Made by a program: the position numbers and the translations under genes
Part shown: positions 1 through 632 of the stretch, piece after piece
Position numbering within the stretch: the first letter of the stretch is position 1
Layout of the letters: the number at the start of each line of letters is the position of its first letter
Source of the DNA: Escherichia coli
GTDB lineage: Bacteria > Pseudomonadota > Gammaproteobacteria > Enterobacterales > Enterobacteriaceae
Strand: one strand, 5' to 3'
Assembly: GCF_003334335.1 (NCBI RefSeq)
Contig: NZ_QOWQ01000166.1
Length of the DNA: 632 nt
Notes under the pieces: generated by a model
What the model was told of the DNA's origin: nothing
Databases searched by the model: none
What the model saw: the letters and a program-made list of their open reading frames with translations, nothing else

Positions 1-62
1 CCGCAGGCGCTTACGACCAGCGGCAACGTCAGCGCGCAGAGTTTCATTTTCAGCTCTCGCAT
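1..62 (-). CDS. Rz1: o-spanin outer-membrane lipoprotein, lambda Rz1-like, embedded in the +1 frame of Rz (partial)
   Basis: Minus-strand ATG at 62..60, with a second in-frame ATG at 47..45, in the +1 frame relative to Rz. Translation to the window edge: [20 protein letters not shown]. This is a lipoprotein-type signal peptide with a lipobox-like VVSAC, the Cys codon at 5..3. It closely parallels the lambda Rz1 N-terminus as I recall it (MLKLKMMLCVMMLPLVVVGC). An embedded out-of-frame o-spanin inside the i-spanin gene is the established lambda arrangement. Confidence 0.8.
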
Positions 63-282
63 CGGCTAATTCCCTCGAGTATCTGGCATCAAGTGCAGCA
101 ACATCACGCTGGCGCTGCTGCATATCAGTAATGGTTGCATTTGCCTGCTCCAGCTCACTGACTTTTTTATCGCGCTGCTCTTTGTAGGTTATGGCGTTAT
201 CACGGTAATGATTCAGCCCCAGACTAAGCACACCACAGGCTACCAGCATGACAATAATCACCACACACAGAACACGGTTCAT
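1..282 (-). CDS. Rz: i-spanin, lambda Rz-like (N-terminal 94 codons; 3' end lies beyond the window start)
   Basis: Minus-strand ORF with ATG at 282..280 (complement), open to position 1. Hand translation: [94 protein letters not shown]. It has a short N-terminus, one hydrophobic signal-anchor helix, then a charged, Ala/Arg/Glu/Gln-rich segment typical of the periplasmic coiled-coil of i-spanins. Several blocks match lambda Rz as I recall it ([37 protein letters not shown]). Not in the ORF track, presumably because it is truncated by the window edge. Confidence 0.9.
71..76 (-). promoter_or_regulatory. Shine-Dalgarno-like element (GAGGGA) upstream of the Rz1 start
   Basis: On the minus strand GAGGGA lies 8 nt upstream of the Rz1 ATG at 62..60. 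It sits inside the Rz reading frame, as expected for an embedded gene. Assigned on sequence complementarity and spacing only. Confidence 0.35.
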
Positions 283-283
283 A

Positions 284-370
284 TCACCACCAACGAATTG
301 CCCAGACCAGAACAGCAATGGCCACAATACGAATGGCAAATGCCATTGCCCGAATAAGTTCAGCACTCAT
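284..370 (-). CDS. small single-helix hydrophobic peptide, 28 aa, function unknown (paralog C of a tandem triplet)
   Basis: Minus-strand ATG at 370..368, TGA at 286..284. Translation: [28 protein letters not shown]. Short polar N-terminus, then a hydrophobic helix with an Arg/Trp C-terminal end. It aligns without gaps to the neighbouring ORF at 382..498 (RAMAFAI versus RALAFAI). The stop is 1 nt from the Rz ATG. Below the ORF-track length cutoff. The upstream SD is weak (AAAAAG), so expression may depend on coupling. Confidence 0.5.
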
Positions 371-381
371 CTTTTTAAAGT

Positions 382-498
382 TCACGATTTCAGCGCAATG
401 ACCAGTTTTGCCAGCCCATACAGCATCGGAGACACAGCAATACCAACAGCCACCCACTTAATAGCAAAAGCCAGCGCTCTGCTGATGTCATCAGTCAC
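382..498 (-). CDS. small single-helix hydrophobic peptide, about 38 aa, function unknown (paralog B of a tandem triplet)
   Basis: Same frame as the ORF-track entry 382..597, but I place the start at GTG 498..496; an alternative GTG at 504..502 overlaps the upstream stop as GTGA. Stop TGA at 384..382. Translation from GTG498: (M)TDDISRALAFAIKWVAVGIAVSPMLYGLAKLVIALKS. The portion of the track ORF upstream of 504 (CDCRYFIFTNAGCSFSVPRLGDVVF...) is not helix-like and is antisense-frame overlap with the better-supported ORF at 501..632. The N-terminus MTDDIS and core RALAFAIKWVAV match paralog C, and VGIAVSPML matches paralog A. Confidence 0.5.
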   Translation of the reverse strand: MTDDISRALAFAIKWVAVGIAVSPMLYGLAKLVIALKS

Positions 499-500
499 TG

Positions 501-632
501 TCACCCCAGCAGCCCCGACGAAGACAACATCACCCAGGCGAGGGACAGAAAAAGAGCAACCAGCATTAGTGAAAATGAAATACCGACAATCACACACAGG
601 ACCTTTGCCGGCGTTATGAGTTTGTCTGACAT
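501..632 (-). CDS. small single-helix hydrophobic peptide, 43 aa if the ATG at the window edge is the true start, function unknown (paralog A of a tandem triplet)
   Basis: Minus-strand ATG at 632..630, exactly at the window edge, so upstream extension cannot be excluded. Stop TGA at 503..501. Translation: MSDKLITPAKVLCVIVGISFSLMLVALFLSLAWVMLSSSGLLG. Polar N-terminus with two Lys, then a hydrophobic stretch of about 26 residues. The N-terminus MSDKLI parallels MTDDIS and MSAELI in the next two ORFs, which supports this ATG as a genuine start. Core VGISFSLML matches VGIAVSPML in paralog B. Not in the ORF track. Confidence 0.45.
   Translation of the reverse strand: MSDKLITPAKVLCVIVGISFSLMLVALFLSLAWVMLSSSGLLG

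What the first reader, a model, noticed from the sequence alone, without database searches (positions are those of the whole stretch)
284..632. Tandem triplet of paralogous mini-ORFs encoding single-helix hydrophobic peptides
Three consecutive minus-strand ORFs (501..632, 382..498, 284..370), each in a different reading frame, encode peptides of 43, 38 and 28 aa with the same architecture: Met, a 5-10 residue polar stretch starting M-[ST]-[DA]-[DEK]-[LI], then one hydrophobic helix. Paralogs B and C align without gaps; by hand count 10 of 28 positions are identical and 9 more conservative. Paralogs A and B share a VGI-x-x-S-x-ML core after a 2-residue gap. I do not recognise the peptides as any named holin, antiholin or toxin family. 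Their size, single helix and tandem paralogous arrangement resemble type I toxin peptide arrays or small holin-like lysis modulators. There is a loose resemblance to Ldr-type peptides as I recall them (AEL...MAF motif, Trp near the C-terminus), but that is unverified and could be compositional. Candidate roles are lysis-timing or membrane-permeabilising peptides, a toxin array inserted into the lysis operon, or superinfection/abortive-infection factors.
Basis: partly seen in the sequence, partly recalled or inferred. Interest (0 to 1): 0.8.

Follow-up and report, generated by a model that had tools for sequence, protein, structure and literature searches.

The report
Tiny membrane-peptide genes beside phage Rz
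The three mini-ORFs are real, already annotated but uncharacterised genes for tiny membrane peptides in the lysis operon of a common E. coli prophage; they belong to two unrelated families, and they are an ordinary-to-moderately interesting lead, not a toxin array.

Summary
The window is the minus-strand late (lysis) operon of a lambdoid, Stx-phage-like E. coli prophage. It is 100% identical to phage PhiR5_1 and sits in about 612 of 5,426 complete E. coli genomes. The three ORFs exist as described.

- **ORF B starts with GTG, not ATG.** A fourth mini-ORF (F0) lies just outside the window.
- **B and C are true paralogues.** They share PHROG 1115/4493, and the shuffle test gives z about 6.
- **A is a separate family** (PHROG 4906) with no detectable relation to B or C.
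- **A is a real gene.** It is under purifying selection across Escherichia, Citrobacter and Cronobacter, and its O157:H7 Sakai homologue was already reported as the translated small gene XECs191.
- **B and C are atypical family members.** Canonical members are 37-50 aa and start with MKNGLExxAP. B lost that motif and its ribosome-binding site at a single recombination junction. C carries an alternative short N-terminus and has no Shine-Dalgarno sequence here.
- **The A-B-C triplet is one nearly invariant young haplotype.** Other prophages carry other combinations of the same cassettes, and one relative has B frameshifted and C deleted.

There is no promoter, antisense RNA or Ldr similarity, so the type I toxin reading is not supported. 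The region is also not a broken holin. Function is unknown; the most likely role is dispensable inner-membrane accessory peptides of the lysis operon.

The parts
501..632 (-). Gene A: a 43-aa single-pass membrane peptide (PHROG 4906 family). It starts with ATG at 632 and stops with TGA at 503-501.
   Evidence: ORF listed. PGAP annotates it as WP_001280935.1. It hits phrog_4906 at E = 4.5e-21. The Shine-Dalgarno pairing energy is -7.7 kcal/mol, within the top 5% of the region. dN/dS is 0.13-0.5, with dS up to about 1 against Citrobacter and Cronobacter. Copies occur in 1,702 of 5,426 E. coli genomes. The Sakai homologue XECs191 has a RIBOseq signal.
382..504 (-). Gene B' (B-prime): a 5'-truncated member of the MKNGLE/AFAI[KR] family (PHROG 1115). 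It is 38 aa from the GTG at 498, or 40 aa from the GTG at 504, which overlaps the stop codon of A as GTGA. The stop is TGA at 384-382.
   Evidence: It hits only the C-terminal halves of phrog_1115 (3e-24), phrog_3246 and phrog_4493. Canonical relatives carry 10 more N-terminal residues, MKNGLELKAP. The GTG at 498 has a Shine-Dalgarno pairing energy of -6.0. One relative, L007, has a 1-nt deletion that frameshifts this ORF.
496..506 (-). Recombination junction GGGGTGA|CAGTGACT, where the 3' end of A is joined to codon 11 of a canonical B gene.
   Evidence: The same junction is present in the window, L092 and L159. Canonical B genes read ...GCGCCTGTAACTGATGAC at this point, with Val encoded by GTA.
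284..370 (-). Gene C: a 28-aa short-N-terminus member of the same family (PHROG 4493 type, ending in RWW). It starts with ATG at 370. Its stop, TGA at 286-284, lies one base before the Rz ATG (TGATATG).
   Evidence: PGAP annotates it as WP_032140280.1. It hits phrog_4493 at 3.8e-6 and phrog_3246 at 9e-5. It has no Shine-Dalgarno sequence (+0.3 kcal/mol). The same short form, with the same ATG, occurs in L010 and L011, where it overlaps the stop of an upstream 49-aa gene as ATGA. The family core has pN/pS of 0.28.
371..381 (-). Spacer between B' and C. It contains TTTAAAAAG, a remnant of the 3' end of the 49-aa gene (FD) that precedes C in other prophages.
   Evidence: Compare the window...CGTGAACTTTAAAAAGATGAGT, with L010 and L011...ATTTATTTAAACAGATGAGT, and with L007.
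1..282 (-). The 5' part of Rz (i-spanin), starting with ATG at 282. It runs off the left end of the window.
   Evidence: PGAP calls it 'lysis protein', and the phage record calls it 'endopeptidase Rz'. The translation is [30 protein letters not shown]....
1..62 (-). Start of the embedded Rz1 o-spanin ORF (ATG at 62). It runs off the window.
   Evidence: In L001 the ORF 5062..4877 on the minus strand encodes [30 protein letters not shown]..., which has a lipobox and is proline-rich. PGAP does not annotate it in L001.

Best explanation
**Shown**
- Window 284-632 is a mosaic stretch of the late (lysis) operon of a lambdoid, Stx-phage-like prophage. The cassette has an S21-type class II holin, a lysozyme of the predicted SAR type, and Rz/Rz1.
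- Between the endolysin or antirepressor and Rz lies an array of back-to-back micro-genes for hydrophobic single-helix peptides: F0 (outside the window), A, B' and C.
- A is an intact member of a conserved family (PHROG 4906). That family normally sits immediately upstream of Rz, or upstream of a 60-aa lipoprotein in other lysis cassettes.
- B' and C are two diverged members of a second family (PHROG 1115/4493). Canonical members are 37-50 aa, with an MKNGLExxAP N-terminus, an [RK]AxAFAI[KR] helix start, and an RWW or ALKS end.
- B' arose once, by illegitimate recombination that fused the 3' end of A to codon 11 of a B gene. This removed its ribosome-binding site, its ATG and the N-terminal motif.
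- C is the alternative short-N-terminus form. Here it is cut away from its usual upstream partner gene.

**Inferred**
- The peptides are made late in infection from the Q-antiterminated late transcript. Translation would be by coupling, through GTGA and TGA-N2-GTG between A and B', TGA-N11-ATG between B' and C, and TGATATG between C and Rz.
- They insert into the inner membrane and act as dispensable accessory modulators of the membrane steps of lysis, not as autonomous toxins.
- A is very likely functional. B' and C may retain helix-mediated activity but are the most expendable parts.
For: **Context**
- Stx-phage cassettes are described as pinholin plus SAR endolysin in PMC8136144.
- PhiR5_1, which is 100% identical to the window, is deposited as a complete phage genome with E. 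coli C as host.

**Families**
- B-C homology is supported, and by the chimera P0117, which has a B N-terminus and a C C-terminus.
- The canonical N-terminal motif is seen in 13 diverse members.
- A conserved GAGG sits 7-10 nt before the MKNG/MKGI ATG in all 9 leaders aligned.

**Coding constraint**
- The annotated frame has the lowest pN/pS of all six frames: A 0.50, B core 0.10, C core 0.28.
- A has dN/dS of 0.13-0.5 between genera.

**Modularity**
- Architectures seen in 170 loci: R-B-A-Rz (75), R-F0-A-B'-C-Rz (70, plus 6 with ant), R-B-A-B'-C-Rz, R-F0-A-B'-A2-Rz, R-FE-B-FD-C-Rz, R-FD-C-Rz, R-C(long)-Rz and R-ant-A-Rz in 933W.
- The same B-A module follows unrelated holins and endolysins in Citrobacter and Cronobacter (GH108 endolysin) and in Salmonella.

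**Single origin of B'**
- The junction is identical in the window, L092 and L159.

**Translation signals and published evidence**
- The A homologue in O157:H7 Sakai, XECs191, has RIBOseq support.
Against: - No experiment addresses function. The lysis-modulator role is inferred from position alone.
- One B-family copy sits beside tail-fibre genes, flanked by terminators, in Salmonella. That fits a general 'moron' better than a lysis-specific role.
- The modules associate with several unrelated holin and endolysin types, so no specific partner can be named.
- For B' and C in this window, selection cannot be demonstrated. The haplotype is nearly invariant (612 genomes at >=99% identity). It shows only 3 synonymous to 1 non-synonymous change in B', and 2 to 2 in C, plus a 3-nt insertion and a truncation.
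- One relative, L007, has B' frameshifted and C cut down to 15 codons while F0 and A stay intact.
- C has no Shine-Dalgarno sequence.
- The RIBOseq signal for XECs191 is weak (translatome RPKM 12.6, RCV 0.43) and comes from uninduced cultures.
Confidence: 0.55

Rival explanations
1. Only A (and F0) are functional. B' and C in this window are recombination debris: gene fragments left by cassette shuffling. They stay open only because the haplotype is young and the ORFs are short.
For: - B' lost its native ribosome-binding site, its ATG and the family's conserved N-terminal motif at a single junction.
- C has no Shine-Dalgarno sequence and has been cut from the upstream gene it is normally coupled to.
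- The triplet haplotype shows almost no diversity.
- L007 carries a frameshift in B' and a 39-nt deletion in C beside intact F0 and A.
- Frameshifted and chimeric family members are common in the protein database: P0094, P0104 (33 contigs), P0246 and P0248.
Against: - B' has two in-frame GTG codons at the junction. One overlaps the stop of A as GTGA, and a GGGG Shine-Dalgarno-like run gives -6.0 kcal/mol.
- B' differs from canonical B (L003) by 8 substitutions, 7 of them synonymous (sequences), although these may predate the truncation.
- The short C form, with its own ATG, is kept intact in three different contexts at 88-93% nucleotide identity, and the C core has pN/pS of 0.28.
- Both ORFs are intact in nearly all of about 80 IMG/VR loci and 612 genomes.
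Confidence: 0.25
2. The peptides are prophage 'moron' products that serve the lysogen, for example by superinfection exclusion or another membrane-level host effect, and not the lysis programme.
For: - A B-family gene stands alone between terminator-like hairpins next to tail-fibre genes in Salmonella.
- The modules move independently of the type of holin, endolysin and spanin.
- XECs191 showed low transcript and ribosome signals in uninduced Sakai cultures.
- The gene content of the array varies between prophages by presence and absence, as is usual for accessory genes.
Against: - No sigma-70-like promoter was found on the coding strand in or upstream of the array.
- In the window the ORFs are coupled stop-to-start with late genes.
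- There is no PADLOC match.
- The low signal in uninduced cultures can come from spontaneously induced cells.
Confidence: 0.13
3. This is a type I toxin-antitoxin array. Each peptide would be a membrane-depolarising toxin held in check by an antisense RNA.
For: - The size and hydrophobicity fit type I toxins.
- Outside the window, canonical B and C genes follow a bidirectional terminator-like hairpin. Their leader carries a conserved minus-strand promoter-like element (TAGTCA-18-TATACT in L003, TTGGCC-16-TATACT in L176, TGGACA-18-TATACT in L012).
- A 48-nt block of that leader is identical between E. coli and Salmonella, while the coding part downstream has pS of about 0.5.
Against: - The window copies lack that leader altogether.
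- There is no promoter-like site on their strand and no Rfam family, even at E <= 1.
- There is no similarity to LdrA, LdrB or LdrC.
- The ORFs are embedded in an operon with stop-start coupling, unlike known type I loci.
- The promoter-like matches come from a simple consensus scan and overlap the ribosome-binding site and start region, which are conserved for other reasons.
Confidence: 0.05
4. The three ORFs are the frameshifted remains of one larger gene, for example a three-helix class I holin.
For: - Three helices lie in three frames over about 350 nt.
- phrog_3246 (90 aa) and the rare database protein P0094 (83 aa) join the C-terminus of A to B.
Against: - A, B and C each occur as separate complete genes, in other orders and combinations (B-A, A alone, C alone, B alone).
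- The fused forms are over-extended ORF calls or single frameshift variants.
- No Pfam or NCBIfam holin matches.
- The cassette already has its own holin.
Confidence: 0.02

Closest known systems
XECs191, a 'novel intergenic small gene' of E. coli O157:H7 Sakai (Huecker et al. 2017, PMC5597208)
   Same: It is a homologue of ORF A (MMGWLMISDKLITLVKSLCVLVGISFLVMLVAIFFSTAWRVLTLSGLVG), and this is the allele found in phage 933W. It lies between the antirepressor and Rz. The paper predicts it to be an inner-membrane protein with one helix, and reports transcriptome and RIBOseq signal.
   Different: It is about 65% identical to the window allele and was called with a longer N-terminus. No function was assigned. 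In 933W-type phages it stands alone, without B or C.
PHROG 1115 / 4493 / 3246 (unknown function), here called the MKNGLE-AFAI[KR] family
   Same: B and C share the helix core [RK]AxAFAI[KR]xxA and the C-terminal ALKS or RWW endings. They also share the position downstream of the endolysin.
   Different: Both window copies lack the conserved N-terminal MKNGLExxAP motif and the family's GAGG ribosome-binding site.
Accessory membrane proteins of phage lysis cassettes, such as the Mu gp25 releasin (DUF2730; PMC9239132) and antiholins
   Same: These are small membrane-anchored proteins encoded with the lysis genes, and they tune the membrane steps of lysis. This cassette also has a predicted SAR-type endolysin.
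   Different: There is no sequence relation (Pfam gave no hits). The window peptides are far shorter and have almost no soluble domain. The same modules also accompany a GH108 endolysin that is not of the SAR lysozyme family.
Type I toxins (Ldr, Hok and similar)
   Same: They are 28-50 aa hydrophobic single-helix peptides, and some are carried on prophages.
   Different: The window has no dedicated promoter, no long 5' UTR, no antisense RNA and no sequence similarity. The ORFs are operon-embedded and translationally coupled.
Lambdoid 'morons' (Juhala et al. 2000, as cited in PMC4104026)
   Same: They are small, mobile, presence/absence-variable insertions in the late region. One B copy is flanked by terminators.
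   Different: In the window there is no own promoter or terminator. The genes are fused into the operon reading flow.

Membership tests
PHROG 4906 (ORF A family) | Full-length profile match | tested here: met
   E = 4.5e-21, with residues 1-43 matching profile positions 7-49 of 49.
PHROG 4906 (ORF A family) | Conserved motif SDK-L/I...CVIVG-SFS-ML...AW...GL-G in a peptide of 43-49 aa | tested here: met
   Alignments of E. coli, Citrobacter and Cronobacter members.
PHROG 4906 (ORF A family) | Position at the end of the lysis cassette, directly before Rz or the phrog_7528 lipoprotein | tested here: not met
   In the window A is separated from Rz by B' and C. In the other architectures it is directly adjacent.
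PHROG 1115/4493 (MKNGLE-AFAI[KR] family), ORFs B and C | Profile match | tested here: met
   B hits phrog_1115 at 3e-24 and phrog_4493 at 1.5e-16. C hits phrog_4493 at 3.8e-6 and phrog_3246 at 9e-5. In every case only the C-terminal half of the profile is matched.
PHROG 1115/4493 (MKNGLE-AFAI[KR] family), ORFs B and C | N-terminal motif M-K-N-G-L-E-x-x-A-P (or MKGIEVETP) | tested here: not met
   The motif is absent from both window ORFs and present in 13 canonical members.
PHROG 1115/4493 (MKNGLE-AFAI[KR] family), ORFs B and C | Helix core [RK]-A-x-A-F-A-I-[KR] and a C-terminal RWW or ALKS | tested here: met
   B has RALAFAIK...ALKS and C has RAMAFAIR...RWW.
PHROG 1115/4493 (MKNGLE-AFAI[KR] family), ORFs B and C | Own GAGG ribosome-binding site 7-10 nt before the ATG | tested here: not met
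   B uses a GTG created at the junction. C has no Shine-Dalgarno sequence (+0.3 kcal/mol).
Type I toxin-antitoxin (Ldr/Rdl type) | Sequence similarity to Ldr peptides | tested here: not met
   Shuffle tests against K-12 LdrA, LdrB and LdrC all give p > 0.1.
Type I toxin-antitoxin (Ldr/Rdl type) | Own promoter and a cis- or trans-antisense RNA | tested here: not met
   No promoter-like site on the coding strand and no Rfam match at E <= 1. These are consensus and library scans only, so an undescribed RNA is not excluded.
Type I toxin-antitoxin (Ldr/Rdl type) | Toxicity on overexpression, relieved by the RNA | not testable with these tools
   Needs cloning and induction.
Holins and antiholins | Match to a holin family profile | tested here: not met
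   No Pfam hit for A or for canonical B. No NCBIfam hit for A, B or C. PHROG hits carry no lysis category.
Holins and antiholins | Hydrophilic, highly charged C-terminal tail, or a dual-start motif | tested here: not met
   A ends in SSSGLLG, B in ALKS and C in IRWW. None has a dual start.
Holins and antiholins | Triggers or delays membrane permeabilisation | not testable with these tools
   Needs lysis curves.
i-spanin (Rz-like) | N-terminal transmembrane helix plus a periplasmic coiled-coil domain long enough to reach the outer membrane | tested here: not met
   At most about 10 residues lie outside the helix. The weak resemblance of A to the Rz helix is not significant.
Mu releasin (DUF2730) | Pfam DUF2730 match | tested here: not met
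   No Pfam match, even at E <= 10. The family is described in PMC9239132.

The most novel reading that the evidence does not exclude
The stretch between the endolysin and the outer-membrane-step gene (Rz/Rz1, or a 60-aa lipoprotein) in enterobacterial temperate phages may be a dedicated, recombining array of micro-genes for single-helix peptides. At least five families are seen: F0, A, B/C, FD and FE. They would form an unrecognised class of lysis-cassette accessory factors that travel between unrelated holin and endolysin systems.

A sub-case is that the canonical B/C genes are controlled by a cis-antisense RNA of about 75 nt. It would start inside their leader and end at the bidirectional hairpin after the endolysin gene, giving a type I toxin-like module built into the lysis operon.
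Probability: 0.15. Interest if true: 0.6.

Novelty: new member of a known kind. Interest (0 to 1): 0.35.

Why it matters
About a third of complete E. coli genomes carry at least one copy of the A family, with up to 11 places per genome, and about 11% carry this exact triplet. Yet none of these peptides has a known function, and phage annotations often skip them. They are unannotated in the 933W record, and C is missing from the PhiR5_1 record.

If they tune the membrane steps of lysis, they would affect the timing of phage and Shiga-toxin release from STEC. If they act in the lysogen, they would be new small membrane effectors.

The locus is also a clear example of how cassette shuffling makes truncated but still open micro-ORFs. 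This matters for judging small-ORF predictions in general.

Tried and rejected
- **Ldr similarity.** Rejected by shuffle tests.
- **A related to B or C.** Rejected by hhalign (probability 0.9%) and by shuffles.
- **A as a duplicate of the Rz N-terminal helix** (VLCV...MLVA). z is at most 2-3 and inconsistent between alleles, so I treat it as compositional.
- **One frameshifted larger gene or holin.** Rejected.
- **The + strand 123-aa ORF (248..619) as the real gene.** It is an antisense shadow. All antisense frames have higher pN/pS than the sense frames, and PGAP does not call it.
- **Library searches.** Rfam found nothing significant; the only hits were sub-threshold rimP-leader matches on the hairpin in L003 and L179. 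PADLOC found nothing. PDB sequence searches found nothing. Pfam and NCBIfam found nothing.
- **GTDB representative genomes.** The scan with the B/C profile gave no confirmed locus. The exhaustive profile search found only 30 clusters in 1.84 billion proteins, so the family is narrow.
- **K-12 prophages.** Qin and DLP12 have no such ORFs between rrr and rzp, so K-12 small-protein data sets do not help.
- **Literature.** Searches for the peptide strings, accession numbers and PHROG ids found nothing except XECs191. The Pas sRNAs and the anti-sRNAs AsxR and AgvB lie elsewhere, upstream of the holin.
- **Selection on B' and C inside the window haplotype.** Too few substitutions to decide.
- **Structure prediction.** Not run. 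For peptides of 28-43 aa made of one predicted hydrophobic helix, it would not discriminate between the hypotheses.
Full report
**1. What the window is**

The 632-base window is 100% identical to Escherichia phage PhiR5_1, which is deposited as a complete genome with host E. coli C. It is also identical to a prophage in E. coli 2018-166 and many other strains. All genes of interest are on the minus strand.

In the RefSeq record the order on that strand is: SASA esterase, DUF1378, DUF826, class II holin (71 aa), lysozyme (177 aa), KilAC antirepressor, three 'hypothetical proteins', then 'lysis protein' (Rz), followed by the terminase genes. The holin sequence is, from my memory of phage 21, an S21-type pinholin. 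A published survey describes Stx-phage cassettes as predicted pinholin plus SAR endolysin plus Rz/Rz1, often with an Ant gene (PMC8136144).

Window 1-282 is the 5' part of Rz. The embedded Rz1 ORF starts at window 62.

**2. Check of the observation**

Four corrections apply.

- **ORF B has no ATG.** A second in-frame GTG at 504 overlaps the stop codon of A as GTGA. PGAP's start at 537 is a CTG with no Shine-Dalgarno sequence and overlaps A.
- **A fourth mini-ORF exists.** F0 (31 aa, MKMIKMDWKFLLVWLIPFLWVVAQLITAIKG) lies immediately upstream of A, outside the window. It overlaps the antirepressor stop as ATGA, and its own stop lies two bases before the ATG of A.
- **B and C are homologous.** The local alignment score is 51 against 23.2 +/- 4.6 for shuffles, with 0 of 5000 shuffles reaching it. 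Both hit PHROGs 4493, 3246 and 1115. A natural chimera, P0117, joins a B N-terminus to a C C-terminus.
- **A is not detectably related to B or C.** The shuffle test gives p = 0.08 and hhalign gives probability 0.9%. The recalled Ldr resemblance is not significant against K-12 LdrA, LdrB or LdrC.

**3. What the pieces are**

*ORF A (PHROG 4906, E = 4.5e-21).*
- Copies occur in 1,702 of 5,426 complete E. coli genomes, at up to 11 places per genome, always annotated 'hypothetical protein'.
- More than 200 protein clusters exist, including ones from Shigella, Citrobacter and Cronobacter.
- Between genera dS reaches about 1 while dN/dS stays at 0.13-0.35. Over all alleles the annotated frame has the lowest pN/pS of the six frames.
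- Its Shine-Dalgarno pairing energy (-7.7 kcal/mol) is in the top 5% of the region.
- In phage 933W it is the only mini-ORF between ant and Rz, and it is unannotated in that record.
- Its O157:H7 Sakai homologue is 'XECs191' of Huecker et al. 2017. That paper predicts an inner-membrane protein with one helix, and reports weak signal in LB: transcriptome RPKM 30.0, translatome RPKM 12.6, RCV 0.43, coverage 0.55 (PMC5597208).
- A is therefore a real, already noticed but uncharacterised gene.

*ORFs B and C (PHROG 1115/4493).*
- An exhaustive profile search of 1.84 billion representative proteins found only 30 clusters, so the family is small and enterobacterial. No member occurs in GTDB representative genomes.
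- Canonical members are 37-50 aa. They begin with MKNGLExxAP (or MKGIEVETP), continue with [RK]AxAFAI[KR], and end in RWW or ALKS. B-type members carry an 11-residue insertion relative to C-type members, and intermediates exist.
- A GAGG lies 7-10 nt before this ATG in all nine leaders aligned. A 31-nt indel lies upstream of it, so the longer 60-aa 'KYKRILLRL' forms used in some annotations are probably over-extended. In agreement, between E. coli and Salmonella those upstream codons show pS of about pN (about 0.12), while codons 23-60 show pS 0.52 and pN 0.10.
- Family-wide, the helix core is under clear purifying selection: pN/pS is 0.10 for B and 0.28 for C, the lowest of the six frames.

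*The window copies are atypical.*
- B' begins exactly at family position 11.
- Upstream of that point the sequence is the 3' end of A: GGGGTGA|CAGTGACTGATGAC. Canonical genes read GCGCCTGTAACTGATGAC there.
- The same junction is found in three architectures (the window, L092 and L159), so the truncation happened once.
- C has the alternative N-terminus MSAELIR. In L010 and L011 this short form overlaps the stop of an upstream 49-aa membrane-protein gene (FD) as ATGA. In the window only about 9 nt of that gene's 3' end remain, and C has no Shine-Dalgarno sequence.

**4. The triplet is one young haplotype within a shuffling array**

Across 170 fetched loci, the stretch between the endolysin and Rz holds one to four mini-ORFs in many combinations:

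| Architecture | Loci |
|---|---|
| R-B-A-Rz | 75 |
| R-F0-A-B'-C-Rz | 70, plus 6 with ant |
| R-B-Rz | 3 |
| R-B-A-B'-C-Rz | 2 |
| R-F0-A-B'-A2-Rz | 1 |
| R-FE-B-FD-C-Rz | 1 |
| R-FD-C-Rz | 1 |
| R-C(long)-Rz | 1 |
| R-ant-F0-A-Rz | 1 |
| R-ant-A-Rz (933W) | 1 |

The loci were collected through searches that keep the best matches, so these counts show variety, not frequency.

- The same 'hairpin, B, A' module follows quite different lysis genes in Citrobacter (Phage_holin_8, Phage_holin_3_7 and a GH108 endolysin). There it precedes a 60-aa lipoprotein (phrog_7528) instead of Rz. In Cronobacter the module is 'hairpin, F0 pseudogene, A', again followed by the lipoprotein. In Salmonella, B sits between a PF00959 lysozyme and Rz.
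- One Salmonella B copy lies beside tail-fibre genes, between terminator-like hairpins.
- The exact B'-C arrangement is present in 612 genomes, with little divergence (581 records are at >=99% identity). About 80 IMG/VR loci differ from the window by 0-4 substitutions over 420 nt.
- Within this haplotype I count 3 synonymous and 1 non-synonymous change in B'. In C there are 2 synonymous and 2 non-synonymous changes, one 3-nt insertion and one truncation. That is too few to decide on selection.
- In phiSTEC1589-Stx1c (L007), B' has a 1-nt deletion and C has lost 39 nt, leaving 15 codons, while F0 and A remain intact.

**5. How it most likely works**

*Shown:* gene order, tight packing, family membership, coding constraint at family level, and the truncation history.

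*Inferred:* the ORFs are transcribed with the late operon, because no promoter-like site lies on their strand. They would be translated by coupling:
- The stop of F0 lies two bases before the ATG of A.
- A and B' are linked by GTGA, or by TGA followed two bases later by GTG.
- B' and C are linked by TGA followed 11 bases later by ATG.
- C and Rz are linked by TGATATG.

The products would be single-helix inner-membrane peptides with almost no soluble part. My preferred reading is that they are dispensable accessory modulators of the membrane steps of lysis. Three points support this.
- They are made at that time and place.
- They occupy a conserved slot just before the outer-membrane-step gene.
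- They vary by presence and absence without abolishing phage viability.

I rate the anatomy and history as well supported and the functional reading as weak, for an overall confidence of 0.55.

The main rival, at 0.25, is that B' and C here are recombination debris and only A and F0 matter. A lysogen-serving 'moron' role gets 0.13, a type I toxin array 0.05, and a broken single gene 0.02.

**6. Comparison with what is known**

- A belongs to PHROG 4906 and is the homologue of XECs191.
- B and C belong to PHROG 1115/4493 but fail two of its defining features, the N-terminal motif and the own ribosome-binding site.
- None of the ORFs meets the tested criteria for holins, i-spanins, the Mu releasin (DUF2730) or Ldr-type toxins.
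- In function, the nearest precedents are small membrane-anchored accessory lysis proteins such as releasins and antiholins, and lambdoid morons.

**7. Novelty and score**

The sequences are already in RefSeq and PHROGs as hypothetical proteins, and one family has published RIBOseq support. What is new here is:
- the split of the three ORFs into two families;
- the definition of the canonical B/C family motif;
- the single-origin truncation of B';
- the picture of a shuffling micro-gene array that moves between unrelated lysis cassettes.

This is a useful lead for phage-lysis specialists but not a surprise. I score interest at 0.35. The most novel reading not excluded is a dedicated class of lysis-cassette micro-peptides, possibly with antisense-RNA control of canonical B/C genes. 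I give it probability 0.15, and interest 0.6 if true.

Noticed in passing
L001 5635-5730 (minus strand), directly beyond window position 632: A fourth hydrophobic mini-ORF, F0 (31 aa, weak hit to phrog_6632). It overlaps the antirepressor stop codon as ATGA. Its C-terminus, PFLWVVAQLITAIKG, weakly resembles the B C-terminus, PMLYGLAKLVIALKS (hhalign P = 1e-3, probability 22%). It is a pseudogene in Cronobacter L181.
   Followed up: partly
Window 1-62 (minus strand); L001 4877-5062: The embedded Rz1 o-spanin ORF (lipobox LVVSAC, proline-rich) starts at window 62. PGAP does not annotate it in this RefSeq record.
   Followed up: no
L003 1369-1471; L176 2397-2553; L012 about 1340-1450: Canonical B and C genes follow a bidirectional terminator-like hairpin (AAAACCCCG...CGGGGTTTT). 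Their leader holds a conserved minus-strand promoter-like element (TAGTCA-18-TATACT, TTGGCC-16-TATACT, TGGACA-18-TATACT). This could give an antisense RNA of about 75 nt. A 48-nt block of the leader is identical between E. coli and Salmonella, while the coding part has pS of about 0.5. There is no Rfam match.
   Followed up: partly
L182 2640-2822; L181 2640-2822; L006 1563-1745: In these lysis cassettes a 60-aa lipoprotein (phrog_7528, unknown function; lipobox LVGC, three Cys in the mature part) occupies the place of Rz/Rz1 directly after A or C(long). Gene calls and annotation show no Rz-like gene, so it may be an unrecognised outer-membrane-step factor.
   Followed up: partly
L176 2501-2701: A B-family gene stands alone between terminator-like hairpins, next to tail-fibre and DUF4376 genes, in a Salmonella prophage. 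It is outside any lysis cassette.
   Followed up: partly
L180 and L181 1-859: A Cronobacter prophage carries Enterotoxin_a (Scabin-like) and LT-IIB genes immediately upstream of its holin genes. This is the same position that stx occupies in Stx phages.
   Followed up: no
Window 382-537 (minus strand): The RefSeq CDS for B (WP_042004856.1, 51 aa) starts at a CTG with no Shine-Dalgarno sequence and overlaps A by 37 nt. The start was probably mis-set by homology to over-extended relatives.
   Followed up: yes
L092 (region between R and Rz): A second, diverged copy of A (MSRKLIMLGEILWVIVCISFSATLIALLLSMAWMTLNSAGLVG) follows B'. Its dN/dS against close relatives is about 0.8-1.2, which suggests relaxed or diversifying evolution after duplication.
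   Followed up: partly
Window 248-619 (plus strand): A 123-aa ORF lies antisense to A, B and C. It is open because it mirrors hydrophobic codons. Its pN/pS is higher than the sense frames, and it is not annotated.
   Followed up: yes
L010 1314-1780: Two further mini-gene families for hydrophobic peptides occur in the same slot: FE (50 aa, phrog_12997) and FD (49 aa, no PHROG). N-terminal and helix modules of FD, B and C recombine, as shown by proteins P0107, P0241 and P0246.
   Followed up: partly
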